Source: Candidatus Aenigmatarchaeota archaeon (GTDB taxonomy: Archaea; Aenigmatarchaeota; Aenigmatarchaeia; QMZP01; QMZT01). From it: a stretch of 64,000 nucleotides of DNA. This document shows positions 15,894 to 64,000 of this stretch, in pieces; the stretch's first letter is position 1, and each line of letters starts with the position of its first letter. The DNA is taken from NCBI GenBank assembly GCA_041489155.1, contig JBGPQP010000001.1, forward strand, positions 25,431 to 89,430, written 5' to 3'. The notes below the pieces were generated by a model. That model made no database searches, was not told where the DNA came from, and saw only the letters and a list, made by a program, of their open reading frames with translations. A program made the translations under genes and the position numbers.

Positions 15894-16772
15894 ATGCCTT
15901 CCTTTTACAGAAAATTGTCCCTCGTTCTTTTCGGGGGTCTGGTTGAGAAGAACATCGCTTCGTTCAAGCCGCTGGAGCTGCATATAAGAAATGCCAACAT
16001 GAAAATCCTTCTGAAAACATGGATAAGCATGCTGTTTATGTCGACGTTCATTTCTTTCTTCGTTTCATTCATTCTGATTTACGTGCTCCTGAGCTACATC
16101 GTCCAAGTGGAATTCTACATATACATATTCTGCATTATATTTTTCCCGGTCTTCGTTGCATCACTGGTTTTCATATTTTTTTACCTGTATCCGGTCGAAA
16201 AGGAGAGGTCAAGGCAACGTTCAATAGAAAATAACATGCCCTTTGCCATCACGCATATGGCGGCTATTGCCTCATCTGGAATACCAACCGAATTCATGTT
16301 TGAGTTATTGACTGGCTTCAAGGAGTACGGGGAGATATCACAGGATTCGAAGCTCATAATGAGGAACATAAAAACATTCGGCATGAGTTCGATCGATGCC
16401 TTGAAGGACATCGCCGATAGAACGCCTTCCCAGAGCTTCAGGGAGCTTCTGCTGGGCATAGTCTCAACTACAGAGTCAGGAGGGGACATGGTGGAATACC
16501 TGCATGAGATGTCCGAGAGGGCCTTGTTTGACTACAGGATAAAAAGAGAGAGGTATATGAAAACGCTTTCCACATATGCAGACATATACACCGCGCTTCT
16601 TGTAGCCGCGCCTCTGATGATGCTCTCAATGCTTGCGACCATGAGCATAATAGGGGGAAGCGTGATGGGGCTTACGATAGATGAGATGATAATGCTGATT
16701 ACATGGGTCATGCTGCCGTTCCTCAATGTAGCTTTCATTGTATTCATTCATATCACATATCCCGGTGTGTAA
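15894..16772 (+). CDS. TadC/FlaJ-like pilus-assembly platform protein, half 1 (T2SS-F domain)
   Basis: Polytopic membrane protein with a cytoplasmic T2SS-F-type helical domain (…NMPFAITHMAAIASSGIPTEFMFELLTGFKEYGEISQDSKLIMRNIKTFGMSSIDALKDIADRT…). Confidence 0.7.
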   Translation: MPSFYRKLSLVLFGGLVEKNIASFKPLELHIRNANMKILLKTWISMLFMSTFISFFVSFILIYVLLSYIVQVEFYIYIFCIIFFPVFVASLVFIFFYLYPVEKERSRQRSIENNMPFAITHMAAIASSGIPTEFMFELLTGFKEYGEISQDSKLIMRNIKTFGMSSIDALKDIADRTPSQSFRELLLGIVSTTESGGDMVEYLHEMSERALFDYRIKRERYMKTLSTYADIYTALLVAAPLMMLSMLATMSIIGGSVMGLTIDEMIMLITWVMLPFLNVAFIVFIHITYPGV

Positions 16773-17631
16773 AATGGAAATGAGCAAAAACGTTATGAAC
16801 GAGGTGTTTTTTGTAGCGATAGGCATCTTGATACTGATGCTCAATTTCTTTGTAATAATCAATATATTCCCTTTCATATCACCGCTTTTCAACGTCCTCG
16901 GCGCCATGGTGGCTATAGTGCCGCCGTTCCTTATTTTCTATGGAAGATACAGGGTAAGCAAAGAGATAGAGGAACAATTCATAATATTCATAACCGATCT
17001 GACAGGGGCGATAGATTCCGGTATGACCCTGCCCATCGCCTTGAAGCATGTTTCAAAGAAAGACTACAGATCGCTGACGCCTTACGTAAAGGAGATAGAA
17101 GGCAAGGTCGAGTGGGGCATTCCTTTCGAAAAGGCACTGAACATATTCTCGCATAAAGTGAAGTCAACGCCCATTAGAAGATCTGTCAGCACGATAATAG
17201 AAACGTACAAGGTGGGCGGCAAGATATCAGATACGTTAAAGGCAATAGGTCAGTCGCTTATCGAAATAAACAAGATAAGGCAGGAACGTTCCACTTCTGT
17301 CCAATCGCAACTTGTTACGTCATACATGATATTCTTCGTTTTCATATTCATCCTTCTTATTCTGAAGAGCTTCCTGATCCCGTCACTGGGCAGCATGCAG
17401 ATGTCACCAAGCTTGATGGAGGAACAGGAAGAGACGCAAACTATGCCAACAGAAATCTACAACCAAACTTTCGTGAATTTTATACTTGTTCAGGGCTTTT
17501 TCGCCGGCCTTGCCACGGGGAAGATGGCAGAGGGCTCGGTGGTCGCCGGCATTAAGCACAGCATCGTTTTGATAGTGATAGGTTATACGGTTTTCTCTGT
17601 TCTCGGGCAGTTCCAGCTATCAATGTTTTAA
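16738..17631 (+). CDS. TadC/FlaJ-like pilus-assembly platform protein, half 2 (T2SS-F domain)
   Basis: A second T2SS-F-type domain (…FIIFITDLTGAIDSGMTLPIALKHVSKKDYRSLTPYVKEIEGKVEWGIPFEKALNIF…KVGGKISDTLKAIG…) flanked by TM helices. It overlaps the previous ORF by ~35 nt, i.e. the two-domain FlaJ/TadC is split TadB/TadC-style. Confidence 0.7.
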   Translation: MYSFISHIPVCKMEMSKNVMNEVFFVAIGILILMLNFFVIINIFPFISPLFNVLGAMVAIVPPFLIFYGRYRVSKEIEEQFIIFITDLTGAIDSGMTLPIALKHVSKKDYRSLTPYVKEIEGKVEWGIPFEKALNIFSHKVKSTPIRRSVSTIIETYKVGGKISDTLKAIGQSLIEINKIRQERSTSVQSQLVTSYMIFFVFIFILLILKSFLIPSLGSMQMSPSLMEEQEETQTMPTEIYNQTFVNFILVQGFFAGLATGKMAEGSVVAGIKHSIVLIVIGYTVFSVLGQFQLSMF

Positions 17632-35697: not shown

Positions 35698-37383
35698 ATG
35701 GGTTTCAGGGGGAAGTTGAGGGAAAAAATAGTCAACATAAGAAAATTCAGCAAAATAGAGTATCCGCATTTGGAAATAAGGGAGCCAAAAAATTTCATCA
35801 TATTCCCTTCTTTCAAGAAGCCTTCTGAGATAGACATAAAATATCCTCTCCTCGAGCCATTTGTTTATGCACACATAAGATGGGAGCCACGCAAAAGGGG
35901 CCTTGTTTACGAGGTGGTAGAACCCTGTCTTTCCAATAACGAAAAAGAGATTCTGGAAACAATAAAGAAGGATCTACTCGAGATAATAGACGTGGAGCTT
36001 TCCGCAGTAAAGGAAGGCGGAAAGGTTCTGAAATATGTACAAGAAAAAATTGAGAAAATACTCGAAGAAGAGAACATGGTTTTGCCCAAGGAAACGTATG
36101 TCAAGATGATGTATTACATCTACAGGGATTTTGTCGGGTTCAACGAGATTGAAGGCCTTCTCCATGACCCTTACATTGAAGACATAGGCTGCCCTGGGCT
36201 GGATATACCTGTTTTTGTGGTGCACAGGAAGTTCGGTTCTGTAGAAACTAACATCGTTTTCACAGACAGCGGTTACTTTAACAATTTCGTTATCAAACTT
36301 GCGGAGCGCAGCGGCAGATATATTTCATATGCAAAACCCCTGCTGGACGGCTCCCTGCCAGATGGTTCAAGGGTGCAGGCAACACTCGCGAAGGATGTCA
36401 CTACCAAAGGACCGACGTTCTCGATAAGAAAATTCAGGGTCGAGCCGTTTTCGCCGATAGACGTGATAAACTTCAATACCGCCTCATCTGAAATAATGGC
36501 ATACCTGTGGCTGATGGTGGAATCGAGGACTTCTACGCTGATATGCGGTGGCGTTTCGACTGGAAAGACTACATTTCTGAACGTAATGGGCATGTTCATA
36601 CCTCCGGAGGACAAGATTGTCTCGATAGAAGACACCCGCGAACTGAACCTACAGCATGAAAACTGGATACCAAGCGTTTCCAGGGTGGGCTTCGGCGTGC
36701 CTGAAATAGGCGGCAAAAGATACGGCGAAGTAACGCTTTTCGAGTTGCTCAAGGAATCCTTCAGGCAGAATCCGGATTATGTTATCGTGGGCGAGGTGAG
36801 GGGAAAGGAAGCTTACGTGATGTTCCAGGGGATGGCAAGCGGGCACCCATCGATGGGGACCATACACGCGGGATCTGTCGAAGACGTCATAAAGCGCCTG
36901 GAAATGCCGCCAATCGAGCTTTCTCCTAGCCTCATAGAGACATTGGACATCGTGGTGGTCATGACACATGCAAAGGAAAGGGGCAAGTCCGCGAGAAGGG
37001 TAAAGGAAATCGATGAAATAGAATCCATAGACCCTAAAACAGGGACTGCCCATAACATAAAGATTTTTTCCTGGAACCCGTCCTCAGATACCTACTCCAC
37101 AAATCTTGACGAATCCTATCTGACGAAAAAGATGGCCTTCGAGAAGGGCATAACCTATGAGGAAATGATGAAGGAAATGAGGAAACGCGAGAAAATACTT
37201 GAATGGATGAGAAAATTCGGGGTGACGAATTTCGACGATGTGGCAAAAATGATCAATCTCTATTGCAAGGAGCCTTCCATAGTGATGGAATGGGTTGAAA
37301 AAGGAGTCCCGCCCTACAAGACAAAGGCCAAGGAAGCGAGTAAAATACTACAATCCTTCAGCGGCCTGAGGGTAATCGAGTGA
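35698..37383 (+). CDS. type II/IV secretion-system ATPase (FlaI/TadA/PilB-like) paralog 2
   Basis: Walker A CGGVSTGKTTFLN, Asp box IVSIEDTRELNL, Walker B YVIVGEVRGKEA, His box ASGHPSMGTIHAG. Core identity to paralog 1 is roughly 40% by eye. Confidence 0.9.
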   Translation: MGFRGKLREKIVNIRKFSKIEYPHLEIREPKNFIIFPSFKKPSEIDIKYPLLEPFVYAHIRWEPRKRGLVYEVVEPCLSNNEKEILETIKKDLLEIIDVELSAVKEGGKVLKYVQEKIEKILEEENMVLPKETYVKMMYYIYRDFVGFNEIEGLLHDPYIEDIGCPGLDIPVFVVHRKFGSVETNIVFTDSGYFNNFVIKLAERSGRYISYAKPLLDGSLPDGSRVQATLAKDVTTKGPTFSIRKFRVEPFSPIDVINFNTASSEIMAYLWLMVESRTSTLICGGVSTGKTTFLNVMGMFIPPEDKIVSIEDTRELNLQHENWIPSVSRVGFGVPEIGGKRYGEVTLFELLKESFRQNPDYVIVGEVRGKEAYVMFQGMASGHPSMGTIHAGSVEDVIKRLEMPPIELSPSLIETLDIVVVMTHAKERGKSARRVKEIDEIESIDPKTGTAHNIKIFSWNPSSDTYSTNLDESYLTKKMAFEKGITYEEMMKEMRKREKILEWMRKFGVTNFDDVAKMINLYCKEPSIVMEWVEKGVPPYKTKAKEASKILQSFSGLRVIE

Positions 37384-40074: not shown

Positions 40075-40123
40075 AAAAACCCTCCCTCGATAATGATATT
40101 ATTAAAGTGTGATATTTAAAAAT

Positions 40124-41215: not shown

Positions 41216-41337
41216 AATTTCATATAATTAGGAAAGCTATTTAAATGCTTTTCGTGAAGTTGTGTGAACTTTGACTGAAAAAGGTCTATGTTTATACGTG
41301 ATGAAAACAATTTATATAAGTTCTCCAAATTCATTTC

Positions 41338-42268: not shown

Positions 42269-42269
42269 A

Positions 42270-43307: not shown

Positions 43308-43367
43308 ACGGACACCACCTACCTACTATCGACTAGATATAAAATATTGGTTTTCCGGTCTATAAAT

Positions 43368-45860: not shown

Positions 45861-45909
45861 AACAATCCATGAACATTTTATTTTAATTGGAATGAAATAA
45901 AAAATTATC

Positions 45910-47010
45910 ATGCCGAATTTTAAAGGAGCGCTGAAAACAAAGCTACCAAAAAAATTAGAGGACAGGGTATCTCTGCTGTTTATAATCATTACGCTGCTTT
46001 TGGCTTTTTTTCTTACGTTTTCCATTTCATTTATAGTAGGTAAACCGATTGGCACAGATTTCTGGTTTCACCTTAAAATAGCAGAATCTTACGCGAGAGG
46101 CGAGAACGCGCTCTTCAATGAAGAATTCATGGCCCCCAACAGAGGTCCATATCCACCGCTTTTTCACCTGATGCTGGCATTGTTTGTTACTTCGGGTTTT
46201 ATTTTGCAGATAGCAACTTTTCTGCAGGTAATGTTTTATCCTTTGGCTTTGTTCACATCTGTTTTTCTGGTTTGGAAAAGGATTAATGCGTCTTCAGCGT
46301 CTTTTGTTTCTATTGCCCTCTTTTCATCGGTCGCCTTCTTTGACAGATCTATGCAAGTAATTCCTCAGGCCTTCGACATGATACTCTTTCCGCTTGCAAT
46401 TTATTTTTTTCTCACAAAGAGACGGATATTCTTCCTGATTTCTATGTCGATAATGATATATTCACACGGTGCGTTTGGTTTTCTCCTATTTAGTTCTCTC
46501 GTCTTATACAATTTAAAATACAAAGTTTCAAAGAAAATGATAATAGATGTTCTTGTTGCAACTATTCCAATACTGGTATTAATACTTGTTTTTCTTCCAT
46601 CACAAATCGGTTTGATCAATGACATAAAAAATCCGCAGGAAAAACTTATCAAGGAAAATCCAATATCTTTATTTGTTTATATGGGTATTTTTCCCACATC
46701 AACATTCATAGTTTCATTGATGCATTTTTTTCATAAAAAGAGGAAATTAAGTAAAACGGAAATAATGTCACTTTTGTGGTTAATAGTATTACTGCCGGTG
46801 ATAGTTTTTTACCCAGACAGATTTTGTACCTATGCAGTCGTTCCCGTGTCAATCTTGGCTTCAAAATTTTTGTCAGATATTTCTTTTGCTCATGGTAGAT
46901 GGTTGGGTCTCTTATTACTCGTATTTTCATTTGCAATATCATTGATTACATATTTGAACTGGTGGCAGGTTTTATATGAAACTTCTTCTGTGAGTTTTGA
47001 TATTCATTAA
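45910..47010 (+). CDS. polytopic membrane protein, possibly GT-C-type glycosyltransferase-like
   Basis: About 10 predicted TM helices with a conserved-looking first periplasmic loop (KPIGTDFWFHLKIAESYARGEN). This resembles PMT/ArnT/AglB-like GT-C N-terminal loops only loosely. Confidence 0.4.
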   Translation: MPNFKGALKTKLPKKLEDRVSLLFIIITLLLAFFLTFSISFIVGKPIGTDFWFHLKIAESYARGENALFNEEFMAPNRGPYPPLFHLMLALFVTSGFILQIATFLQVMFYPLALFTSVFLVWKRINASSASFVSIALFSSVAFFDRSMQVIPQAFDMILFPLAIYFFLTKRRIFFLISMSIMIYSHGAFGFLLFSSLVLYNLKYKVSKKMIIDVLVATIPILVLILVFLPSQIGLINDIKNPQEKLIKENPISLFVYMGIFPTSTFIVSLMHFFHKKRKLSKTEIMSLLWLIVLLPVIVFYPDRFCTYAVVPVSILASKFLSDISFAHGRWLGLLLLVFSFAISLITYLNWWQVLYETSSVSFDIH

Positions 47011-47032
47011 TAAGAATGGATAAATTATAACT

Positions 47033-48412
47033 ATGAAAAATGTACTTGAAAAGGTTCTTAAAAAAATAGTGCCAAGCAAGAATGAGATAGAAGAATTTTC
47101 TAGAATACTGAAAGACGTTCTGCATGCCGCCGACATGGTTTTGAAGCCTCTGAAGCTTGAAAAAACAATCGCCGGTTCATTCATACGTGATACGTGGCTT
47201 GCTGACAAGCGTGAGCTGGATCTTTTCATAATGTTTCCTGTTTCATATTCGCGCGAAAGACTTGAGAAGGTTGGCATAAAGATTGGCAAAAAAATCATGA
47301 AAAAACTAAATGGCAGATACGAGATAGCCTATGCTGAACATCCGTATGTTAAGGGGTGGTTCAGAGGCTTCATGTTAGATATAGTTCCATGTTATAAAGT
47401 CGAATCAGCTTCAAAAATAAAATCTGCTGTCGATAGAACGCCTTTCCATAACAAATACATTATTGAAAATCTGAAACCGAAAATGGCAAACGAGGTCCGT
47501 CTTCTTAAACAATTCTGCAAGGCGATGGGGGTTTATGGCTCTGACGTAAGAACCCAGGGATTTTCGGGTTACCTATGCGAACTGCTGATAATAAAATACA
47601 AAACTTTCAAAAATTTGTTGATTGAAGCTAAAAAATGGGAATTCGGCATTTTTATAGATTTGGAGAACCACTGCAAATTCGACTATCCTACCGAACAATT
47701 TAAAGGCCAGCCATTGATTGTTATAGACCCAACAGACCCAAAAAGAAATGTTGCTGCTGCCCTCTCAGACGATAATTTCATGAAATTCATTGAAACCTCT
47801 GGGGAGTTTATTAAAAACCCATCTACAAAGTTTTTCGAAATAGACAAGACTGCACTTAAAGGAATTCTGTTAAAAAAATATTTGAAAAAAAGAGGTACGG
47901 AGTTTTTTGTGATAGAGTTCAAAAGACCGGAAATTGTTGATGATATATTATGGTCCCAGATGAGGAAAACTTCAGTTAGAATGGCCAATCTTTTGGGAGA
48001 AAACGAATTCGAAATTTTCAAAAAAGAGGTATGGAGTGATGAAAAACGTTCTTATCTATTATTCGAGATGAAGGTGTGGAAACTGCCAGAAATAAGAAAG
48101 GTTATGGGGCCACCCGTCGGTTCGCAGAAACACGCAGATGAATTTAAAAAGAAATATGCAAGTAGTGCTTACATAGAAGGAGATAGATGGGCAGCCGAAG
48201 TTAAGAGAAAAAACAGGGACTGCGCTTTACTTTTTAAAAAATTCCTAAAAAAACCTAGTAAAAAATTGCAGAACGAAGGGGTAAGATCTTATATTGCAAA
48301 GAGCATTTCTAACGGTTTTAAAATTCTTGGAAGCAAAAAAATTGAAGAGTTGATTGCAAAAAATAAAGATTTTGCTGTTTTTCTCAAAAAATATTTTGAG
48401 AGGAAATTATGA
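47033..48412 (+). CDS. cca: CCA-adding enzyme (archaeal class I tRNA nucleotidyltransferase)
   Basis: N-terminal nucleotidyltransferase signature AGSFIRDTWLADKRELDLFIMF (GS…R.T.L…D.D); ~459 aa, typical for archaeal CCA enzymes. Confidence 0.8.
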   Translation: MKNVLEKVLKKIVPSKNEIEEFSRILKDVLHAADMVLKPLKLEKTIAGSFIRDTWLADKRELDLFIMFPVSYSRERLEKVGIKIGKKIMKKLNGRYEIAYAEHPYVKGWFRGFMLDIVPCYKVESASKIKSAVDRTPFHNKYIIENLKPKMANEVRLLKQFCKAMGVYGSDVRTQGFSGYLCELLIIKYKTFKNLLIEAKKWEFGIFIDLENHCKFDYPTEQFKGQPLIVIDPTDPKRNVAAALSDDNFMKFIETSGEFIKNPSTKFFEIDKTALKGILLKKYLKKRGTEFFVIEFKRPEIVDDILWSQMRKTSVRMANLLGENEFEIFKKEVWSDEKRSYLLFEMKVWKLPEIRKVMGPPVGSQKHADEFKKKYASSAYIEGDRWAAEVKRKNRDCALLFKKFLKKPSKKLQNEGVRSYIAKSISNGFKILGSKKIEELIAKNKDFAVFLKKYFERKL

Positions 48413-48876
48413 ATATTCTGTTTCATTTTCTCTTGAATTATCTTTTCGTTGATTTGTTTTTTGGAAATGCCTGGAATTACTTAATTGCCATATTTGTCTT
48501 TTCCGTGCTGATTGATATCACCCATTTGCCATATCTTTTCAAGTTCGGAAAGAACGTCGTTAAAAAAAGATTCGGCTCGGAGGCGAGAACGAGATTTCAT
48601 GAAATATATGGCTTGACTCTGTTTTCAGCGATTGGCTGCCTGCTTTATTTCTTCTTTGATCAGATGATAGTGGAAATGGCCGTATTGTGCGTGATCCTGC
48701 ATTTTGCAGTGGATTTCGTGGCAGGAAAATCCATGCCTTTTTACCCATACTCCAGAACCGAGATTTTTCTTGGCGTATCACCTTATGGGTACAGAAACAA
48801 GATAATTTTTGAAATTGTTTCTACTGTTTTGGTGGGGGTGTTATTCTGGTTCAATACAGCAAGCCTTCTTTTATGA
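48409..48876 (+). CDS. small integral membrane protein (possibly membrane-bound metal-dependent hydrolase-like)
   Basis: Four or five TM helices with conserved-looking His/Asp positions (LIDITHLPY, LHFAVDFVAG). Translationally coupled on both sides (ATGA overlaps with cca and the next gene). Confidence 0.4.
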   Translation: MNILFHFLLNYLFVDLFFGNAWNYLIAIFVFSVLIDITHLPYLFKFGKNVVKKRFGSEARTRFHEIYGLTLFSAIGCLLYFFFDQMIVEMAVLCVILHFAVDFVAGKSMPFYPYSRTEIFLGVSPYGYRNKIIFEIVSTVLVGVLFWFNTASLLL

Positions 48877-49301
48877 AAAAAATGCGAAACTACACGGACA
48901 AAATTGGTTTGAAGCTACCATTGCCAGATGTGAATCCCAATATGCTTTCAGGGCTGTCCGTAATAACTTCTTTTATTTTTCTCTTGACAATAAAATTCTC
49001 GTTTATACTTTCTCTGGTGATTTTACTAACAACGCTTTTGCTCGACTGGTTTGACGGCATAGTTGCAAGAAAATTCGGCCATGCCTCCGAGGGGGGACAT
49101 ATAGTTGATGTTGCGAGCGACAGGTTCTCTGAGGGGCTGTTTTTTGTGGCTCCAGCTTTCTTTTTTCCATGGTTCTACTTGTTCACCCTTAACTGTGCAC
49201 TTTCGCTTCTCTCTATAAAGAGGAAAAGGCATGTGATACTCCCCCTGAGGCACGTTTTTTTCGTGTTTTGCGTGTTTATTCTGCTCTTTGGCGGTAGGTG
49301 A
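48873..49301 (+). CDS. minimal CDP-alcohol phosphatidyltransferase family protein
   Basis: Complete signature D-x2-D-G-x2-A-R-x8-G-x3-D-x3-D in LLLDWFDGIVARKFGHASEGGHIVDVASD. Only 142 aa, shorter than typical family members. Confidence 0.7.
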   Translation: MKKMRNYTDKIGLKLPLPDVNPNMLSGLSVITSFIFLLTIKFSFILSLVILLTTLLLDWFDGIVARKFGHASEGGHIVDVASDRFSEGLFFVAPAFFFPWFYLFTLNCALSLLSIKRKRHVILPLRHVFFVFCVFILLFGGR

Positions 49302-49372
49302 ATATTTAAATACCTTATCTGACAAGAATAAAGAATTACAGCCGTGTACTGCGTAAGCAGGAGGTTGCCATA

Positions 49373-50005
49373 ATGGAAGAATTTTTGAAGGAAATAAAGG
49401 AAGCCAAAGAAAAGGCAAAAAAAAGGAAATTTGTCCAAACTTGGGACCTAATTATCAACCTAAAGAATCTAGACCTGAAAAAACCGGAGAACAAGCTTAA
49501 CCTCGAATTCGCTCTACCAGAAGGTAAGGGCAAAGAATCGAAATTCTTGTTCATAGCCGACATGCTTCTCTCCGAAGCAAATAAGACCGGAGGCATGGTC
49601 ATAGTTAAGAACGATCTTGAGACTTTGGGGAGAGACAAGAAAAGATTGAAAAAATTCGCTGACGAATACGAATGGTGGTTTTGCGAGGCGCCACTTATGC
49701 CTATTGTGGGCAAAACGCTCGGTGTGGTGCTGGGTCCACGCGGCAAGATGCCAAAGCCCATTCCACCGAAGGGAAGTTTACAGCCCTTCGTAGAAATGTC
49801 CAAAAGAATGATTAAAATAAGAATCAAGGATTCGCCGGTAATTCACGTCGCAATTGGAAGGGAGGACATGAAAGAGGAGCAAATAATGAAGAATGCAATT
49901 GCCGTCATGAACTTCGTAAAGGAAAAGCTTCCAAAGGGTAATATGAACATAAAGAATGCTTATGTTAAATTAACGATGGGACCGCCGATTAAACTCAAGG
50001 TGTAA
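49373..50005 (+). CDS. rpl1: 50S ribosomal protein L1
   Basis: …RKFVQTWDLIINLKNLDLKKPENKLNLEFALPEGKG… and the downstream GKTLGVVLGPRGKMP block typical of L1. It is followed by P0 and P1, as in the archaeal L1-L10-L12 operon. Confidence 0.9.
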   Translation: MEEFLKEIKEAKEKAKKRKFVQTWDLIINLKNLDLKKPENKLNLEFALPEGKGKESKFLFIADMLLSEANKTGGMVIVKNDLETLGRDKKRLKKFADEYEWWFCEAPLMPIVGKTLGVVLGPRGKMPKPIPPKGSLQPFVEMSKRMIKIRIKDSPVIHVAIGREDMKEEQIMKNAIAVMNFVKEKLPKGNMNIKNAYVKLTMGPPIKLKV

Positions 50006-57932: not shown

Positions 57933-59192
57933 ATGAAAATCATATCGGATCTGCACATCCATTCCCGTTTTTCCAGGGCGACAAGCAGCGACCTCAGCAT
58001 AGCCAATCTCGTGAAATACGCCAAGATGAAAGGCCTTCATCTTCTCGGTACTGGCGACTTCACCCATCCCGCCTGGCTCCAGGAGCTGAAAAACGAGCTG
58101 AAGGAAGACGGGACGGGAATACTAAAAACAGATGACGGGTTTCCTTTCATCCTTTCGGGCGAGATAGCGAGCATTTACAACCAGAATAATGCTCTGAGGA
58201 GAATACATAACATCCTGCTTTGTCCGGATTTTGCAACAGCCGAGCAGGTACATGAAACTCTGAAAGGGAAGCACGTCAAAATAGACGCTGACGGCAGGCC
58301 GATATGCGGCATCCGCTGCCCTGAATTGGTTGAAACCCTGAAAGGCATAAATCCAAGAATCGAAATTATTCCTGCCCACATATGGACGCCGTGGTTCTCG
58401 CTTTTCGGGTCGAAATCTGGTTTCGACCGTATAGGGGATTGTTTTCAGGATCAGACAAAAAACATACATGCGCTGGAGACAGGCTTGTCTTCGGATCCAG
58501 CCATGAACTGGCGGCTGTCACAGCTTGACGGGTTTTCTCTCGTTTCGTTTTCAGATTCCCATTCATTCTGGCCATGGAGGATCGGGAGAGAGGCGACGGT
58601 ATTTGATCTGAAACATGTCAACTATGACAATCTGATAAAGGCCTTGAGAACCGGGGATGGTTTAGTGGAGACGATAGAAGTCGACCCTTCTTATGGCAAA
58701 TATCATTATGATGGCCACAGGGACTGTAATGTTTCGCTCAGTCCGGAGGAATCGAAAAAATTGCGGAACATCTGCCCGGTGTGCGGGAGGCCGCTGACAA
58801 TAGGTGTTTTGCACCGTGTGGAAGAACTTGCAGACAGGCCGGAAGGCTTCACGCCCAAAGATTCAAGACCCTTTCGTTCCGTTGTCCCGTTATCGGAAAT
58901 AATATCTTTTGCTCTGGGGGCGAGCATGAGTTCTTCGAAGGTCTGGGGGGAATACAGCAGGCTCGTGGGCGCCTTCGGGTCCGAACTTGGAGTGTTGTTT
59001 GACGCAGATGAAGAGAAATTAAGAACTACAACAGAAAGTAAAATTGCAGAACTGATAAACAAGATGGGAAGCAGCAGGATAAAAATAAAGCCCGGATATG
59101 ATGGCGTGTACGGGGAAATCGAAACCGAAAGCGTGAGAAGATCTCAGAAAAAAAGTATAACAAAACCTCAAAAGAGGCTGGTTGATTTCTAA
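57933..59192 (+). CDS. PHP-domain protein (TIGR00375-like archaeal phosphoesterase family) with Cys-rich insert
   Basis: MKIISDLHIHSRFSRATS start (PHP motif I), …LLGTGDFTHP…, further His/Asp ligands (PAHIWTP, SFSDSHSF), and an internal CPVCGRP Zn-binding-like element; 419 aa. Confidence 0.65.
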   Translation: MKIISDLHIHSRFSRATSSDLSIANLVKYAKMKGLHLLGTGDFTHPAWLQELKNELKEDGTGILKTDDGFPFILSGEIASIYNQNNALRRIHNILLCPDFATAEQVHETLKGKHVKIDADGRPICGIRCPELVETLKGINPRIEIIPAHIWTPWFSLFGSKSGFDRIGDCFQDQTKNIHALETGLSSDPAMNWRLSQLDGFSLVSFSDSHSFWPWRIGREATVFDLKHVNYDNLIKALRTGDGLVETIEVDPSYGKYHYDGHRDCNVSLSPEESKKLRNICPVCGRPLTIGVLHRVEELADRPEGFTPKDSRPFRSVVPLSEIISFALGASMSSSKVWGEYSRLVGAFGSELGVLFDADEEKLRTTTESKIAELINKMGSSRIKIKPGYDGVYGEIETESVRRSQKKSITKPQKRLVDF

Positions 59193-60151
59193 ATATATGG
59201 TTTCCTTCCGATTACATTTACTGATGTGGATGCGTCCACGAAATAATCATATTCCAGTTTAAATATTAGGTTTTTCTGTATGTATTTGGCCGTGCTGCCA
59301 GGGGGTACCGGCATCTCAATTTCGCATGTCAGGGTCGCTGCTTGGCTCTTCCATAAATCAACAAGCATGCTTCTCTCGGGAATGCCTGAATTGCATATAA
59401 GATTGACCGAAACGTCACTTTCAAAAAAGAGTTTTGCCTTGTTCCAGTTGTCTGTTTTTTGACAGCCTTGTTGCTCGGGGTTGCAGACAACGCCGCCGCC
59501 TATGTTCTGTATTTTTATATTTATAGGGAAGTTGATCTTCCCCTCACCGCTCCAGTATCTTATGGGGCCGTTGACAACGATCTCCATGCTCACCGGACCG
59601 CTGGTCGTGCTGACATCCTCAAGGGGGAGTGATTCACCGCGTGTTTCAAGTGATATAAGTTCTTCCTGTGAGGCTATATTGACCGCTTTTATCGTGCTGG
59701 TCTTGTACATATAATAAGTTCTCATGCTCGGGTTGAAGGTTACAGAAATGCCTTCTGGTATGTTGGGTGGTGCTATGCAGTCCCATGTGCATGTTTTTGT
59801 TTCCCCCACTGTGCCACTCTCCTGATCAGGGGCCAGCAAAACCTCTTCAGAAGCGCATAAGTCAAAACGTTCTATGCATGAAATTTCTATTTTGTTGCCG
59901 CCAAATACGCTTTCTACATTGTAAAGCTTCATAAAAACATTTTCCGCGTCGGAAGCGCCGATATTTCTTATTTTCGCTCTTAATTCGAATGCTTCGCTGG
60001 CATAGATATCTTTCAGTGGGCTGACCTCAAAATTTTCTATAACAACGCCGCTGCCTGCGGCTATGTTGCCTCCGAAAAAGGTGCAACCTGAAATTAAAAC
60101 TGCTGCTAAAATTACAAGCAATGCCGCAGTAGCTGCCTGTAGCTTGGTCAT
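59189..60151 (-). CDS. secreted lipobox protein, paralog 4 of a tandem family (CARDB/Ig-like N-terminal domain)
   Basis: Signal peptide with the lipobox …VLISGC|T. CARDB-like block GSGVVIENFEVSPLKDIYASEAFELRAKIRNIGASDAENV. Family motifs TCTWDCIAPPN…RTYYMYKTSTIKAV, GESLPLED, IQNIGGGVV, YDYFVDASTSVNV. Confidence 0.6.
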   Translation of the reverse strand: MTKLQAATAALLVILAAVLISGCTFFGGNIAAGSGVVIENFEVSPLKDIYASEAFELRAKIRNIGASDAENVFMKLYNVESVFGGNKIEISCIERFDLCASEEVLLAPDQESGTVGETKTCTWDCIAPPNIPEGISVTFNPSMRTYYMYKTSTIKAVNIASQEELISLETRGESLPLEDVSTTSGPVSMEIVVNGPIRYWSGEGKINFPINIKIQNIGGGVVCNPEQQGCQKTDNWNKAKLFFESDVSVNLICNSGIPERSMLVDLWKSQAATLTCEIEMPVPPGSTAKYIQKNLIFKLEYDYFVDASTSVNVIGRKPYI

Positions 60152-60187
60152 ATTTATAAAATGAGATTCAGCCTTTTATCCTTTCGG

Positions 60188-61201
60188 TCAGCCTGGCATT
60201 GTAGACGGTTTCACGTAAACTTCTGATGCTTTGTCTATGAAATAACCGTATTTTGCATTCAGTTCTATGTTCTTTTGAACAAGGCCTACGTATTGGCTGG
60301 TATCAGCGATTATTTTGCAAGAAATAGTCTGCGGATCTCCGCCGACAAGGAGTATATCTTCTGTGGTACCGCAAGAGCCTTGGGCCGGTTGAAACCCAAT
60401 CGGTAATACTATGTTCAGCTTAAGTTTATAAAGGTCGGGGTTTGTCATCAGGCCGCCTTCTTTTTTGCAGTTGGTGCTTTCTTCTAGGCAGACTGTTCCG
60501 CCGCCCACATTCTTTACCGTAATGACAATCGGAAATTCGACGCTGCTGCTGTACGTTCTTATCGGTGTTGTTGCCTCCATCTCTATGGATATGGGTGAAT
60601 TGGTCTTGCTGTACGCTTCCGTTGGCAGACTCTTGCCCTGATCCTGCAGTGTCTTGAGCTCGTCTTTTGAAACCAGAGTTACTGTTTTTATGGTAGTTGA
60701 CTTGTATGTGTAATAAAATCTTACCCTCGGATTCGCAGTTATGCTTAAACCCGGCAGAACTTCAGGGGCGATGTATCTCCAACTACATGTCGTTTCTCCG
60801 CCAGTTATGCCTGCATTCGTATCTTCTGGCAGAAGTCTTATTTGACGAGTGGTATATCTGCAATAATTTTCGTCCGGGAAGTTCTCGCCTGTGGGGTTTG
60901 AGGTGGTGCCAGCTGCTCTTCTCCATACCTGGTCCAAGCCAAGCAATTCAGCGAAGCCGTTTTCTGCTGTGACCGAGCCGGTGTTTTTCACCTTTAGCTT
61001 GAACGCGACAGTCTCACCTGAATTGACATTCTGGAAATCTGGGCCGAATTCCTCTACTATAACGCCCGTGCCTGGCGGTGTATCGGAATTGAAAGGTGTT
61101 ATCGACGGCAGAGTGCAGCCAGATGCCAGAATAATCGAGAAAATAGACAAAAACAAAATGGGATATTTATTGCTCATGCTATATAATTTGGAAAAAAACA
61201 A
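60188..61201 (-). CDS. secreted lipobox protein, paralog 3 of the tandem family
   Basis: Lipobox ILASGC|T; GTGVIVEEFGPDFQNVNSGETVAFKLKVKNTGSVTAENG; TCSWRYIAPEV…RFYYTYKSTTIKTV; GKSLPTEA; VKNVGGGTV; YGYFIDKASEVYV. Confidence 0.6.
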   Translation of the reverse strand: MFFSKLYSMSNKYPILFLSIFSIILASGCTLPSITPFNSDTPPGTGVIVEEFGPDFQNVNSGETVAFKLKVKNTGSVTAENGFAELLGLDQVWRRAAGTTSNPTGENFPDENYCRYTTRQIRLLPEDTNAGITGGETTCSWRYIAPEVLPGLSITANPRVRFYYTYKSTTIKTVTLVSKDELKTLQDQGKSLPTEAYSKTNSPISIEMEATTPIRTYSSSVEFPIVITVKNVGGGTVCLEESTNCKKEGGLMTNPDLYKLKLNIVLPIGFQPAQGSCGTTEDILLVGGDPQTISCKIIADTSQYVGLVQKNIELNAKYGYFIDKASEVYVKPSTMPG

Positions 61202-61210
61202 ATAAAAGGT

Positions 61211-62191
61211 TTAGAATTCTTCCATGCCTTTGACTGTTATCTGTGTTGAAGCGTCCACTGAGTAGAGGTAGTTGAGATTCACCTTGAAGTTGCCCTGTGT
61301 TCTGCTAGACGGCGGCTGCATTATCTGGAATTCGCATGTGACGTCTGTTGTTCTTCCGTCCCATATGTATACGAAAGTCCCTGTAGGCTGCGGCAGAAGC
61401 GTTGGCACATCAGTGTACAACGGCGTTCCCCATTGCGTCTGTGTCGGGCAATAGCCACCGACTGGCGAAACCCATGTCGGCCATTCGACCGATATCGCGA
61501 CCGGGTAGTTTCTGCCCCTTATCTGCCCTCCGCCTGTGTTATCAATTCTTATTTGCAACTGGAATCTGGCATCTGTGAGTTCTCTTGCCTTAACGAATGG
61601 ACCTGCGTTAACCGTGACCGTCAAAGGACCTGCCGTCTGTGACACGACTTCGCTGGTCAGTGATTCACCGGACTGGACGAGTCTCCTAAGCTCCTCGCTA
61701 GTCACAAACCATACAGGTTTTATTGCCTTGGTTTCATACAGGTAGTAAACTCTCGCCCTCACTGGATAGAGTTTCCTCTCACCCCTCTGAAGGGTCGGAG
61801 CGGTTAGTTCCCATGTTACCTTTCCCAGACCGCCTTCCGTCTGTGACTCTACGTCTGGTGCAAGAAGTGAACCAAGGTCCACGACTGTTGATGGTGTTAC
61901 GATCCATTCTGTGGGATCTATAGCCATTATCTCCGCGACTGCGGGTGCTCCTGATCCCATAAGGCCGTTGTAGTCTCCTCTGTTCCTCACTTCAAGCTGT
62001 AGTCCTACTGGTTCCCCTGATTCTATGGCAGTGTCTAGTGTTGGCAGGAATTTTTCTATCACGAGGCCCTGTCCTATTGCTGTCTGGTTGCCTCCTCCTA
62101 TGCAACCTGAAACTGGCAGTATAGCTAGCACGAATAACAGCGAAAGTAAATTCGTTTTTTTGAATGCGTCGGCCATATTTATTTTATACAC
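61211..62191 (-). CDS. secreted lipobox protein, paralog 2 of the tandem family
   Basis: Lipobox LPVSGC|I; GQGLVIEKFLPTLDTAIESGEPVGLQLEVRNRGD; VTWELTAP…RVYYLYETKAIKPV; GESLTSEV; IDNTGGGQI; YLYSVDASTQITV. Confidence 0.6.
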   Translation of the reverse strand: MYKINMADAFKKTNLLSLLFVLAILPVSGCIGGGNQTAIGQGLVIEKFLPTLDTAIESGEPVGLQLEVRNRGDYNGLMGSGAPAVAEIMAIDPTEWIVTPSTVVDLGSLLAPDVESQTEGGLGKVTWELTAPTLQRGERKLYPVRARVYYLYETKAIKPVWFVTSEELRRLVQSGESLTSEVVSQTAGPLTVTVNAGPFVKARELTDARFQLQIRIDNTGGGQIRGRNYPVAISVEWPTWVSPVGGYCPTQTQWGTPLYTDVPTLLPQPTGTFVYIWDGRTTDVTCEFQIMQPPSSRTQGNFKVNLNYLYSVDASTQITVKGMEEF

Positions 62192-62210
62192 AAATAAGCT
62201 TTTATATCTT

Positions 62211-63311
62211 TCACAGCTTTATTTTAGGCTCGACCGTTATCGACAACTCTTTTGTGAACTTATACCAGTAGCCGATTTCCGCGGTTATCTGGGAGGTGAG
62301 CTCCTGCTTTATTCTTGTTCTGTCTGCGGCTGTTATGGCACAGGAATATTTGGGCGTGGCTTTGCCTATGAAATTTATACTGATGATATCATTCCCGTTC
62401 GCCTTGCTTTTCAGGTGCGTTTCAATGCATCTGATTATTGCATTCTGGTTGCCGTTGGTGTCAATCGCGGTCACGAATTCACTGCTTATCTTAAGGCACA
62501 GCTTCTTCTGGCTTTGGTCCATGTTCTTGCAATCCGTTGTTGATATATCAACATTAGGTGTGGATGAGTCGGAAAGTTCTAATATGCCGCCGCCCTTGTT
62601 CTCTATCCAGAAGCTCATTATGCCTCCGCCCTGGTTTTTGACATCGCCTTCTGCATCAATTACCAGCGGCTGATTAAGCACTTCTATATATGGTTTGACC
62701 GGGCCTTCACCTATTGAAAGGATGCCTGTTTCTGAGAAGCTCTTGCCTTCGGAAATTATCCTTTCAAGCTCTGCCTTATTTACAAAGGTGACTGACGCGG
62801 TCGAAAATGTCCTGTATTTGTATTTGGCCATCACGCCCATTTTGCACGGGGTCTCTACGTTCAGGTTTTCCCTTGCTGTAAGTTTCCATTCGACAAGCGC
62901 CGTCGACTGCGGATGCATTTCTATTGTGCACTCTGACATGCCAGTTGCCGGGTTGTATCTTGGAGCGGTTGTGCCTGAGCAAAACTCACCGCTTACGCCT
63001 TCATTTTTTTCGTCCAAGCCAAAGAGGCCGCAATCGTTGTAAAGACCTATTGTGACTGTTGTTTTGTCGTATTCTGGGCTTTGCAGGTTCTTTACTACCG
63101 CCCTCAGGCGCATTGTCTGGCCTGCCCGGACGGTTGATGAAGGTATCGCCTGCAGGCTTTCTATCGAGATTACGTCATGTCGTTGTTCCTGTACACTAAC
63201 GCCGCCAAAAATGTCCGGCAAAAACGGAATTTCTATGTCAAGCAAAGGAACCGTGCAGCCAGAGCTTAACAACACCAGAAACAGCGCTGATAGGACTAGA
63301 ATCCTTTTCAT
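62211..63311 (-). CDS. secreted lipobox protein, paralog 1 (most divergent) of the tandem family
   Basis: Lipobox LLSSGC|T; the Ig-like block …VRAGQTMRLRAVVKNLQSPEYDKTTVTIGL…; LVEWKLTAREN…AKYKYRTFSTASVTFV; GKSFSETG; VKNQGGGIM. Shares spacing of motifs with the other three but low identity. Confidence 0.55.
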   Translation of the reverse strand: MKRILVLSALFLVLLSSGCTVPLLDIEIPFLPDIFGGVSVQEQRHDVISIESLQAIPSSTVRAGQTMRLRAVVKNLQSPEYDKTTVTIGLYNDCGLFGLDEKNEGVSGEFCSGTTAPRYNPATGMSECTIEMHPQSTALVEWKLTARENLNVETPCKMGVMAKYKYRTFSTASVTFVNKAELERIISEGKSFSETGILSIGEGPVKPYIEVLNQPLVIDAEGDVKNQGGGIMSFWIENKGGGILELSDSSTPNVDISTTDCKNMDQSQKKLCLKISSEFVTAIDTNGNQNAIIRCIETHLKSKANGNDIISINFIGKATPKYSCAITAADRTRIKQELTSQITAEIGYWYKFTKELSITVEPKIKL

Positions 63312-63372
63312 GATAATATATTATTCGACACGTGAGCATTTATTTTTATTGACAGCTCAGAAAGTATAGATT

Positions 63373-63864
63373 ATGAAAGGTCAGCTAATTTTCGAGTTCC
63401 TTATAGCCGGCTTCCTTTTTTTTGCAATTGTTCTCTATGCCATAAATTACATGAACGTGAACGTCACGGATTTCAAGGGCAAATTTTACCAGAGCCGGCT
63501 ACAGAGCAGGGCGGTTCAGATATCAGAGATTTTGATGGGTGGTACATCCTCAATGAGTCTTATGGACAACTCGGAATTTAACATCACGAAAATCCAGAAA
63601 TTTAATTCAACCTACTGTTCTTTCGAGAACTACAATAAACTGGTAAACGACCTGTATCTTTATGAAACGACCGGTTTCGCTATCCTGCCTGATAATATCA
63701 GGATAGAACTCGCTTCAATACAGTCAGGCGTATTGCTTGCCTGCGGACCCAACTTCCCGAGGGGCGCACCTACAGGAAGTGCAAAAGCAGAGATAGGAAG
63801 GGTTGGTATGCTGCAAAACGGGTCTGCAAAAGAAACTATGAAATTGATGGTTGTTGTGTGGTAG
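63373..63864 (+). CDS. KGQ-type class III signal peptide protein (pilin-like, Glu at +5)
   Basis: MKGQLIFEFLIAGFLFFAIVLYAI has K-G|Q, then L-I-F-E(+5), then a hydrophobic helix. This is the EppA/Gln+1 type, with a bacterial-like Glu5. 163 aa mature domain with sequons (NVT, NIT, NST, NGS). Divergently transcribed from the lipoprotein array. Confidence 0.6.
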   Translation: MKGQLIFEFLIAGFLFFAIVLYAINYMNVNVTDFKGKFYQSRLQSRAVQISEILMGGTSSMSLMDNSEFNITKIQKFNSTYCSFENYNKLVNDLYLYETTGFAILPDNIRIELASIQSGVLLACGPNFPRGAPTGSAKAEIGRVGMLQNGSAKETMKLMVVVW

Positions 63865-63929: not shown

Positions 63930-64000
63930 ATGAAAATAATTGTGGTTGGCGGCGGTAAACTGGGCGAAACGCTTTCGAAAATTCTTGTCAAGGAAAGGCA
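63930..64000 (+). CDS. N-terminal fragment of a Rossmann-fold NAD-binding (TrkA-N-like) protein, truncated by the window end
   Basis: MKIIVVGGGKLGETLSKILVKER: a GxGxxG dinucleotide-binding start running off the window. Confidence 0.35.
   Translation, partial: MKIIVVGGGKLGETLSKILVKER

What the first reader, a model, noticed from the sequence alone, without database searches (positions are those of the whole stretch)
59189..63864. Tandem array of four divergent paralogous lipobox/CARDB-like secreted proteins adjacent to a KGQ-type pilin-like gene
Four consecutive minus-strand genes (320-366 aa) each start with a signal peptide ending in a lipobox ([LI][AS][SG]GC). Each then has an Ig/CARDB-like N-terminal block (G.G[VL]VIE.F.P…GE….L.V.N.G) and a shared set of motifs at conserved spacing (TC.W..IAP, R.YY.YK[ST].TIK.V, G[EK]SL[PT].E, N[IVTQ]GGG, Y.Y[FS][VI]DAS[TE].V.V). 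Pairwise identity is low. This is an old, diversifying paralog family that is kept in tandem. Immediately upstream and divergently transcribed is a pilin-like gene with an EppA-type K-G|Q signal and Glu+5. On the other flank sits a PHP-domain phosphoesterase. The array looks like a variable surface-exposed module, possibly host-contact adhesins for an episymbiont or a pilus-associated tip/anchor set. It does not correspond to a named system.
Basis: partly seen in the sequence, partly recalled or inferred. Interest (0 to 1): 0.7.

Follow-up and report, generated by a model that had tools for sequence, protein, structure and literature searches.

The report
Conserved lipoprotein quartet beside a pilin gene
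An Aenigmarchaeota (DPANN archaeon) operon encodes four old, non-interchangeable, probably lipid-anchored surface proteins that have been purged of N-glycosylation sites and sit next to a type-IV-like pilin gene, so it is a good but uncharacterised candidate for a cell-contact module.

Summary
Four adjacent minus-strand genes (A 59189-60151, B 60188-61177, C 61211-62176, D 62211-63311) are true paralogs. Each has an N-terminal signal ending in x-S-G-C and two CARDB/Ig-like beta-sandwich domains. A KGQ/Glu+5 pilin gene (63373-63864) is transcribed divergently from them.

The family has no Pfam model and no relative in the PDB. It has about 1,600 representatives at 50% clustering, and every named one comes from an Aenigmarchaeota-type MAG.

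The array is not variable in copy number. Gene position equals ortholog group in 19 loci: D, then C, then an A/B-type gene that duplicated once. Gene-wide dN/dS is 0.06-0.18.

Close strains are nevertheless mosaic. C is 96% identical, while parts of A, B and D fall to 60-73% nucleotide identity.

N-x-S/T sequons are depleted about 9-fold in the family (51 observed, about 442 expected). They are enriched 3-fold in the pilin family. This fits proteins that are outside the cell and kept glycan-free.

The pilin is probably genuine. In distant relatives its homolog is the fourth gene of an ATPase-platform-platform-pilin operon. In the window's clade, pilin and D share a 61-bp spacer with an invariant 18-nt A/T-rich block.

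Best reading: a fixed, lipid-anchored heteromeric surface set, possibly working with the pilus. Function is untested.

The parts
59189..60151 (-). Paralog A (320 aa), last gene of the operon. Signal MTKLQAATAALLVILAAVLIS-G-C23, then two beta-sandwich domains. It is the fastest-evolving member.
   Evidence: ORF. AF2 model has pLDDT 89.5, TM helix 3-20, disordered tether 24-32, domains 36-161 and 180-315. Ortholog identity to L006 is 39% against 71% for C. No N-x-S/T sequon, 2.6 expected.
60188..61177 (-). Paralog B (329 aa from ATG 61177; the ORF extends to TTG 61201). Lipobox A-S-G-C. Sister of A by an old duplication.
   Evidence: gene callers give 329 aa. NJ tree. 0 sequons, 3.4 expected.
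61211..62176 (-). Paralog C (321 aa from ATG 62176; the ORF extends to GTG 62191). Lipobox V-S-G-C. It is the most conserved member, so the likely core subunit.
   Evidence: 96% amino-acid identity to L022 with dS 0.24. 71% to L006. Always at position 2.
62211..63311 (-). Paralog D (366 aa), first gene of the operon. Lipobox S-S-G-C19, followed by the D-type motif C-T-V-P-x-x-x-I-E-I-P-F-L-P-D-I-F-G. It is a deep sister of the A/B/C type.
   Evidence: HHalign against A/B/C type: 99.8%, E = 1.3e-28. Always at position 1 and next to the pilin gene where the pilin is present.
63312..63372 (.). 61-bp divergent spacer between D and the pilin gene. It contains an invariant, centred 18-nt A/T-rich block TCAATAAAAATAAATGCT (window 63335-63352, read on the minus strand). 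I infer a shared bidirectional TATA-type promoter for two leaderless or short-leader transcripts.
   Evidence: Alignment of nine genomes whose D proteins are only 55-84% identical shows columns 21-38 invariant. The promoter role is inferred, not shown.
63373..63864 (+). Type-IV-filament (TFF) pilin-like protein (163 aa). Class III signal M-K-G|Q with Glu+5, two conserved Cys, four N-x-S/T sequons.
   Evidence: Invariant M1 K2 G3 Q4 E8. AF2 model: helix 2-55 plus a 4-stranded sheet, pLDDT 82. Homologs in L036-L038 are the fourth gene of an ATPase-platform-platform-pilin operon. Sequons are enriched 3.2-fold in the family.
63930..64000 (+). Start of a TrkA-type gene (MKIIVVGGGKLG...), co-directional with the pilin gene and cut by the window end. 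Context only.
   Evidence: Sequence. Full gene in L001 with TrkA_N/TrkA_C. The pilin-to-TrkA order is near-universal.
57933..59192 (+). Convergent neighbour: TIGR00375 / MJ0043_C family, PHP-type protein. Its stop overlaps A's stop by 4 nt. Syntenic, with no indication of a functional link.
   Evidence: Kept next to the operon in most loci.
59613..60212 (-). Strain-variable segment covering the N-terminal domain of A and the 3' end of B. Nucleotide identity to the close relative L022 is 60-76%, against 90-98% in C and the flanks.
   Evidence: Sliding identity and sliding dN/dS.
60333..60452 (-). Strain-variable segment in the C-terminal part of B. Nucleotide identity to L022 is 64% here, and about 79-82% across the surrounding 60213-60812.
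   Evidence: Sliding identity profile. dS is saturated from about codon 106 of B onward.
62373..63092 (-). Strain-variable segment in the middle and C-terminal parts of D, 62-85% nucleotide identity to L022. The first ~75 codons and the last ~50 codons of D are conserved.
35698..37383 (+). TFF secretion ATPase (T2SSE, PilB3_C). It is the closest window relative (42% identity) of the ATPase that heads the pilin operon in L037.
15894..17631 (+). Two adjacent TFF platform genes (T2SSF) at 15894-16772 and 16738-17631. They are 32% and 30% identical to the two platform genes of the L037 pilin operon.

Best explanation
This is an operon conserved across Aenigmarchaeota-type genomes. It encodes a fixed set of non-interchangeable paralogs. 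The ancestral set is a trio (D, C and an A/B-type gene). In this lineage it is four genes, after A and B arose by duplication.

How each protein is probably made (inferred). Each is exported with a Sec-type signal. It is probably attached through the invariant lipobox cysteine to archaeol by the archaeal lipoprotein pathway. It then sits on the outer face of the membrane on a short flexible tether, as two CARDB/Ig-like beta-sandwich domains.

Why I think they act together (inferred). Three things point to one heteromeric surface assembly rather than four redundant adhesins. The gene order is strict. The evolutionary rates are unequal, with C conserved and A fastest. N-glycosylation sequons have been almost completely removed.

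A glycan-free surface would be needed for tight protein-protein packing or for binding a partner. C would be the core. Parts of A, B and D are outward-facing patches exchanged between strains by recombination. That pattern suggests pressure from something external, such as a host cell or a virus.

Link to the pilus (weakest step). In most genomes the operon is transcribed divergently from a glycosylated type-IV-filament pilin gene. In the window's clade the two share a short spacer with a conserved A/T-rich core. The two are therefore probably expressed together and may cooperate in cell contact.

Status of each step. Shown: paralogy, lipobox conservation, fold, orthology by position, purifying selection, mosaic variation, sequon depletion, and the pilin's operon context in relatives. 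Inferred: lipidation, complex formation, co-regulation, and any contact function.
For: - Paralogy and fold.
- Lipobox x-S-G-C in 193/196 members, and only in these four genes in the window.
- A disordered tether follows the Cys in the model.
- Lipoproteins and the lipidation enzyme AliA are reported as present in DPANN, with some gaps: PMC12462473.
- Position equals clade in 19 loci.
- The module is found in all 16 GTDB loci retrieved; where both flanks are readable the order is pilin, then D-type, then 2-3 more paralogs. The same holds in metagenome contigs.
- dN/dS is 0.06-0.18.
- Mosaic divergence: background dS is 0.2-0.4 (TrkA, upstream gene, PHP, C), while dS is saturated in parts of A, B and D.
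- In the pair L003/L011, C is 97% and A 63% identical.
- Sequons: 51 observed against about 442 expected. The controls D-x-S/T (1.03), Q-x-S/T (1.23) and S/T-x-N (0.92) are neutral, and cytoplasmic proteins give 1.2.
- By contrast the pilin family is 3.2-fold enriched, and two other secreted window proteins are 2.6-3.4-fold enriched.
- Pilin identity.
- Conserved spacer.
Against: - No direct evidence shows that the four proteins bind each other. No multimer prediction could be run.
- Adjacency to the pilin could simply be inherited synteny. The unrelated PHP-type gene and TrkA are conserved neighbours too.
- L023 and L024 keep D plus two paralogs without a nearby pilin.
- L036-L038 have the pilin in a TFF operon with no family member in the DNA retrieved (6.7-12.4 kb per locus).
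- The -3 lipobox position is often S or T rather than L/V/I.
- AliA, a lipoprotein signal peptidase, AglB and a prepilin peptidase were not located for this genome.
- Sequon depletion might be a general property of this organism's lipoproteins. I found no other lipobox proteins in the DNA at hand to test this.
Confidence: 0.55

Rival explanations
1. A membrane-proximal envelope scaffold unrelated to the pilus. The lipoproteins would form a structural layer or anchor under or within the cell envelope, for example tethering an S-layer. Their position next to the pilin gene would be inherited gene order only.
For: Strong conservation, purifying selection and a fixed subunit set. A glycan-free surface fits lattice packing. 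The operon occurs without a nearby pilin in L023/L024, and the pilin occurs without the operon in L036-L038. TrkA and the PHP-type gene are equally conserved neighbours.
Against: The pilin-D adjacency persists where the genes upstream of the pilin differ (L014, L016, L019-L021). The spacer has an invariant centred 18-nt block in nine genomes with saturated synonymous divergence. Allelic replacement in A, B and D points to exposure to outside agents.
Confidence: 0.25
2. One reading: four independent, functionally redundant, diversifying adhesins or variable surface antigens.
For: Beta-sandwich surface proteins in tandem. Strain-level hypervariable segments in A, B and D. Low pairwise identity among the paralogs.
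Against: Strict one-to-one orthology by position across 19 loci, with only two duplications seen. Gene-wide dN/dS is 0.06-0.18. C is as conserved as housekeeping neighbours. Redundant adhesins would be expected to vary in number and order.
Confidence: 0.1
3. A lipoprotein-derived fibre, analogous to Bacteroidia type V pili. There, tandem paralogous two-domain lipoprotein precursors act as anchor, stalk and tip and polymerise by strand exchange after proteolytic trimming. I recall this mechanism from memory (Xu et al. 2016, Cell); I did not look it up here.
For: Tandem paralogous lipoproteins of 300-370 aa with two beta-sandwich domains. A highly conserved C-terminal strand motif Y-x-Y...V-x-V. 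A special conserved N-terminal segment only in the first gene, D. The resemblance is by analogy only.
Confidence: 0.05
4. They are not lipoproteins. The N-terminal hydrophobic segment would be an uncleaved membrane anchor or an ordinary signal peptide, and the conserved Cys would serve another purpose, such as a disulfide.
For: Many members have S or T at lipobox position -3. No lipoprotein biogenesis enzyme was located for this genome. No dedicated signal-peptide predictor was available.
Against: S-G-C lies at a fixed distance after the hydrophobic stretch in 193/196 members spanning deep divergence. A disordered tether follows it. Lipobox proteins and AliA are reported in DPANN (PMC12462473).
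Confidence: 0.05

Closest known systems
Archaeal lipobox lipoproteins (AliA/AliB-dependent, thioether-linked archaeol; Haloferax volcanii; PMC12462473)
   Same: An N-terminal signal with positive residues, a hydrophobic core and [x]-S-G-C, with an invariant Cys. The paper reports that lipoproteins are prevalent in DPANN and that AliA is present there with some gaps.
   Different: Lipidation is untested here. Position -3 is often non-canonical. These are beta-sandwich proteins, and they form a fixed set of paralogs.
CARDB domain proteins (Pfam PF07705; structure 3idu, PF1109 of Pyrococcus furiosus)
Archaeal type IV filament pilins, in particular 'system 1' (Epd-type) loci with two platform genes (bioRxiv 10.64898/2026.04.22.720090). 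Epd pilins of Methanococcus having Q at +1 is from my memory.
   Same: K-G|Q cleavage motif, hydrophobic N-terminal helix, Glu at +5. Homologs are encoded after an ATPase and two platform genes. The preprint reports system 1 in some DPANN.
Bacteroidia type V pili (FimA/Mfa1 type)
   Same: Tandem paralogous lipoprotein precursors, each with two beta-sandwich domains, playing distinct roles in one structure. This is an analogy recalled from memory.
   Different: No structural match was found. No cleavage site or protease was seen. Different domain of life, and no outer membrane.
FlaF/FlaG of the archaellum (membrane-anchored beta-sandwich proteins at the filament base; title of Banerjee et al. 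2015 seen in the reference list of PMC4858521)
   Same: Small membrane-tethered beta-sandwich proteins associated with a type IV filament machine.
   Different: FlaF and FlaG are anchored by a transmembrane helix, not a lipobox (from memory). They have one domain, and no sequence or specific fold relationship was found here.

Membership tests
Lipobox (Sec/SPII-type) lipoproteins | N-terminal signal with charged n-region, hydrophobic h-region and lipobox [LVI][ASTVI][GAS]C within about 35 residues | tested here: met
   All four window proteins. x-S-G-C in 193/196 full-length relatives. Caveat: only 102/196 fit the strict -3 [LVI] rule; the rest have S, T, A, F or M at -3.
Lipobox (Sec/SPII-type) lipoproteins | Invariant Cys at +1 followed by a flexible tether | tested here: met
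   S21 G22 C23 are at least 90% conserved in the 50-sequence alignment and invariant in subsets. pLDDT is below 50 for residues 24-32.
Lipobox (Sec/SPII-type) lipoproteins | Lipidation machinery (AliA, arCOG02177) encoded in the genome, and lipid actually attached | not testable with these tools
   Only 64 kb of the genome is available and no AliA reference sequence or model was at hand. The literature says AliA occurs in DPANN with gaps.
CARDB domain (PF07705) | Score above the Pfam gathering threshold | tested here: not met
   A 16.6 bits and B 12.7 bits against a cut-off of 22.7; C and D have no hit. 6/50 relatives match at E <= 0.01, best 1.2e-5.
CARDB domain (PF07705) | CARDB-like beta-sandwich fold | tested here: inconclusive
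Type IV filament pilins (class III signal peptide) | [KR]-G|[QAS] motif before a hydrophobic helix, with Glu at +5 | tested here: met
   M-K-G-Q and E8 are invariant in 17 homologs. Among more distant homologs E8 is Q in one (L019).
Type IV filament pilins (class III signal peptide) | Long N-terminal alpha-helix followed by a globular beta-rich head resembling solved pilins | tested here: inconclusive
Type IV filament pilins (class III signal peptide) | Genetic association with a TFF ATPase and platform protein(s) | tested here: met
   L036-L038: ATPase, two platform genes, then the pilin homolog with overlapping or abutting genes. The window encodes the orthologous ATPase and platform pair elsewhere.
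Type IV filament pilins (class III signal peptide) | Match to a curated pilin N-terminal family, and a prepilin peptidase in the genome | tested here: not met
   No Pfam or NCBIfam pilin family hit. Only DUF7287 in 2/17 homologs at 2.8e-4. No A24 peptidase among the roughly 40 window ORFs scanned. The rest of the genome was not seen.
Diversifying / contingency surface-antigen arrays | Variable copy number and order among relatives | tested here: not met
   Three or four genes, always in the same order. Position equals clade in 19 loci.
Diversifying / contingency surface-antigen arrays | Elevated dN/dS or localised hypervariability | tested here: inconclusive
   Gene-wide dN/dS is 0.06-0.18. 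However, segments of A, B and D show allele replacement between close strains, at 60-73% nucleotide identity against 90-98% in the background.
Type V (FimA/Mfa1-type) lipoprotein pilins | Structural similarity to solved type V pilins | tested here: not met

The most novel reading that the evidence does not exclude
The trio or quartet forms a lipid-anchored, glycan-free heteromeric surface machine specific to Aenigmarchaeota. It would be a contact 'foot' or short fibre built from a conserved core (C) and exchangeable outer subunits (A, B, D). It would be co-expressed with a glycosylated type IV pilus and would determine which host cell the symbiont attaches to. This would be a new kind of archaeal attachment apparatus built from lipoproteins rather than pilins.
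Probability: 0.15. Interest if true: 0.8.

Novelty: new variant of a known kind. Interest (0 to 1): 0.5.

Why it matters
I know of no Aenigmarchaeota in pure or defined culture (from memory, not checked), and I found no molecular account of how they contact partners. The one genomic survey I read infers surface structures from gene content only.

This module gives a concrete, testable candidate. It is a conserved set of surface proteins whose anchoring (lipobox) and partner (TFF pilin) can be probed. Its strain-variable patches mark likely interaction surfaces.

The near-total removal of N-glycosylation sequons is unusual, because other surface proteins of the same organism are sequon-rich. 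It could serve as a general bioinformatic flag for archaeal surface proteins that must stay glycan-free.

It would also extend the recently opened field of archaeal lipoproteins to DPANN, with a family that may be among the main lipoproteins of these small genomes. It was the only lipobox family in the ~400 kb examined, but that sample is mostly one syntenic region.

Tried and rejected
- The search for related loci with the mixed 50-sequence alignment failed for lack of a conserved stretch. I repeated it with a D-type alignment.
- The afdb50 structure library was unavailable, so I have no view of AlphaFold-database relatives or their taxonomy.
- The third homolog search, with the most divergent members, returned only four proteins. 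The taxonomic edge of the family (about 1,600 representatives) is therefore not mapped beyond MAGs labelled Aenigmarchaeota or 'Nanoarchaeota archaeon'.
- Foldseek against the PDB gave no whole-chain match.
- Profile searches of PDB sequences found nothing for the lipoproteins or the pilin.
- The truncated D gene in the 'complete' chromosome L021 is a scaffold gap of 100 N, not gene decay.
- I considered that the D-type N-terminal motif co-varies with the presence of the pilin gene. I dropped this because the I-P-F-[LI] core persists in the Cys-rich variants that lack the neighbour.
- A search for other lipobox proteins in all fetched DNA, to test whether sequon loss is class-wide, found none outside the family.
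- Literature searches found nothing describing this family.

Full report
**1. What is there**

The window is archaeal. It encodes a thermosome, RadA, RtcB, Pus10 and a family-A (archaeal/eukaryotic-type) ATP-dependent DNA ligase. All named relatives of the genes in question come from Candidatus Aenigmarchaeota MAGs.

Four consecutive minus-strand genes occupy 59189-63311:
- D: 62211-63311, 366 aa
- C: 61211-62176, 321 aa
- B: 60188-61177, 329 aa
- A: 59189-60151, 320 aa

The spacers between them are 9-36 nt (19-36 nt if the ATG starts of B and C are used). A 163-aa gene at 63373-63864 is transcribed the other way from a 61-bp spacer. A TrkA-type gene follows it. A TIGR00375/MJ0043_C PHP-type gene converges on A.

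**2. Paralogy and fold**

A, B and C are related at BLASTP E-values of 1e-14 to 6e-41. D is marginal by BLASTP. Profile comparison joins it to the others with 99.8% probability and E = 1.3e-28 over 282 columns.

An AlphaFold2 model of A, built on 50 relatives, has pLDDT 89.5 and pTM 0.81. It shows:
- an N-terminal helix (residues 3-20);
- a disordered tether (24-32) right after the lipobox Cys23;
- two beta-sandwich domains (36-161 and 180-315) joined by one helix.

Pfam CARDB is below threshold for the window proteins and is reached weakly by 6 of 50 relatives. Profile searches of PDB sequences find nothing.

An exhaustive profile search finds 1,603 representatives at 50% clustering with E <= 1e-3, and 994 with E <= 1e-10. 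This is therefore a large but unnamed family.

**3. Export and anchoring**

x-S-G-C follows the hydrophobic segment in 193 of 196 full-length members. Two of the other three are truncated, and the third (P0003) has G-S-G-C. In the window, only these four genes carry such a signal. In about 400 kb of related DNA, all 81 lipobox candidates belong to this family.

Archaeal lipobox proteins are lipidated with archaeol by AliA/AliB in Haloferax. Predicted lipoproteins and AliA are reported for DPANN, with some gaps (PMC12462473). Lipidation here is inferred, not shown.

An independent argument for an extracytoplasmic location came from N-glycosylation sequons:

| Set | Observed N-x-S/T | Expected from shuffles | Ratio |
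|---|---|---|---|
| Lipoprotein family (196 members) | 51 | about 442 | 0.11-0.12 |
| Pilin family | 70 | 22 | 3.2 |
| Window protein 7929-9122 (secreted) | 15 | 4.4 | 3.4 |
| Window protein 27162-28997 (secreted) | 25 | 9.7 | 2.6 |
| Cytoplasmic window proteins | 22 | 18.2 | 1.2 |

In the lipoprotein family, 159 of 196 members have no sequon at all. Control patterns in the same proteins are neutral: D-x-S/T 1.03, Q-x-S/T 1.23, S/T-x-N 0.92.

Only proteins that meet the oligosaccharyltransferase can be selected against sequons. The family is therefore outside the cell and kept glycan-free. Why it must stay glycan-free is unexplained. Tight packing or a binding surface are the obvious options.

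**4. Conservation, order and copy number**

The same module occurs in all 16 loci recovered from GTDB species representatives, and in metagenome contigs. The order is pilin gene (divergent), D-type gene, then two or three A/B/C-type genes. The PHP-type gene usually comes next.

A neighbour-joining tree of 68 mature proteins from 19 loci gives the following:
- Every position-1 gene falls in the D clade.
- Every position-2 gene falls in the C clade.
- The remainder fall in an A/B clade.
- A and B arose by one duplication in the sub-lineage containing the window.
- L014 has an independent duplication.

The ancestral state is thus a trio, and the subunits are not interchangeable.

Evolutionary rates differ between the genes. 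Identity to L006 is C 71%, D 60%, B 57% and A 39%. For comparison, the PHP-type gene is 71% and the thermosome 82%.

**5. Selection**

dN/dS in three close pairs is 0.06-0.18 for all five genes, the same range as the PHP-type neighbour. There is no gene-wide positive selection.

The divergence is mosaic, however. Against L022:
- Nucleotide identity is 90-98% in C, in the 5' part of D, in the 5' two-thirds of the pilin gene and in most of the PHP-type gene.
- It falls to 60-76% in A's N-terminal half (59613-60212) and to 64% in part of B (60333-60452).
- It is 62-85% across the middle and C-terminal part of D (62373-63092).
- Synonymous divergence is saturated in those segments, against a background of 0.2-0.4.

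In the pair L003/L011, C is 97% identical and A is 63%. This is the signature of recombinational allele replacement in exposed parts of A, B and D around a conserved core.

**6. The pilin gene**

The decisive evidence is gene context. In three metagenome loci, a 30-34% identical homolog has the same N-terminus, and in the two with a clean reading frame (L037, L038) the same ...VVVW C-terminus. It is the fourth gene of an ATPase, platform, platform, pilin operon, followed by TrkA.

The window has the corresponding ATPase (35698-37383, 42% identity) and the platform pair (15894-17631) elsewhere. A TFF system with two platform genes is described as 'system 1', found in methanogens and some DPANN (bioRxiv 10.64898/2026.04.22.720090).

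**7. Link between pilin and lipoproteins**

For a link:
- The adjacency holds in every locus where both flanks are readable, apart from the five listed under "Against" below. This includes loci whose genes upstream of the pilin differ.
- In nine genomes of the window's clade the 58-61-bp spacer keeps an invariant, centred 18-nt block, TCAATAAAAATAAATGCT. It lies about 30 nt from both start codons, although D proteins in these genomes are only 55-84% identical.
- I read this as one A/T-rich promoter core serving both directions. That is an inference.

Against a link:
- L023 and L024 have D plus two paralogs but no pilin or TrkA nearby.
- L036-L038 have the pilin without the lipoproteins.
- TrkA and the PHP-type gene are equally faithful neighbours.

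**8. Verdict**

The family is old, secreted and tandem, and it sits beside a real pilin gene. It is a fixed heteromeric-looking set under purifying selection, not a copy-number-variable array, and its variability is confined to recombining patches.

The most likely mechanism is a lipid-anchored, glycan-free surface assembly with a conserved core (C) and exposed, exchangeable parts (A, B, D). It is probably co-expressed with the pilus and possibly used in cell contact.

My confidence that these are extracytoplasmic, membrane-tethered, non-redundant surface proteins is high, about 0.8. For complex formation it is about 0.5. For a functional partnership with the pilus it is about 0.35.

The family is uncharacterised, but it is built from known parts: a lipobox, Ig-like domains and a TFF pilin. 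I therefore rate it a new variant of a known kind, of moderate interest.

Noticed in passing
window 59189-63311 and 196 relatives: N-x-S/T sequons are about 9-fold depleted in the lipoprotein family (51 observed, about 442 expected). They are enriched in the neighbouring pilin family (70 vs 22) and in other secreted window proteins. I know of no described precedent for such a purge in archaeal surface proteins.
   Followed up: partly
window 7929-11402: A second TFF-like locus. It has a 397-aa protein with an M-R-G-Q class-III-like N-terminus and 15 sequons (4.4 expected), a 265-aa ORF with no family match, and a T2SSE ATPase (9849-11402).
   Followed up: partly
window 32521-33461: Two adjacent archaeal pilins matching Pfam Pilin_N (32521-32994 and 32949-33461). 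They lie about 2 kb upstream of the PilB3_C-type ATPase at 35698-37383.
   Followed up: partly
window 27162-28997 (-): A 611-aa protein with a cleavable-looking signal peptide (MDLRCCIVFCLVIILLIYPSDAEA), no Pfam match and 25 sequons (9.7 expected). It is a candidate major glycoprotein, possibly of S-layer type.
   Followed up: no
window 40001-50000: A low-GC stretch (0.36-0.40 against 0.43-0.50 elsewhere). It contains an AAA/STAND-like ATPase with a winged-helix C-terminus (40124-41215), an M42 peptidase, a Toprim protein and the CCA-adding enzyme. It may be an island or simply a compositional shift.
   Followed up: no
window 12374-13819 (-): One ORF carries Pus10 domains (residues 79-379) followed by ribosomal protein L21e (389-478). 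This is either a true fusion or two genes read through by the ORF lister.
   Followed up: no
window 58413-58652: A patch inside the PHP-type gene has 78% nucleotide identity to L022, against 90-97% on both sides. Recombination tracts may extend beyond the lipoprotein genes.
   Followed up: no
L024 11006-13429: The ortholog of the PHP/MJ0043_C gene is 807 aa and carries weak to faint intein/LAGLIDADG matches. It is an intein-containing allele of the conserved neighbour.
   Followed up: no
L037 6535-7179: A 214-aa ORF lies between the pilin and TrkA genes in one locus only. It is absent from L038 and may be a mobile-element remnant.
   Followed up: no
P0050 (584 aa, JGI contig of 2.2 kb): A family member with an F-S-A-C lipobox and a C-terminal extension of about 260 residues that is very rich in Cys (C-x-x-C-C type runs).
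   Followed up: no
D-type relatives such as P0212, P0190, P0156, P0188 and L023/L024 position 1: A D-type subgroup replaces the I-E-I-P-F-L-P-D-I-F-G segment after the lipobox with a Cys-flanked version (for example C-T-T-C-I-P-F-I-G-S-C). This suggests a disulfide-stapled loop around the conserved I-P-F core.
   Followed up: partly
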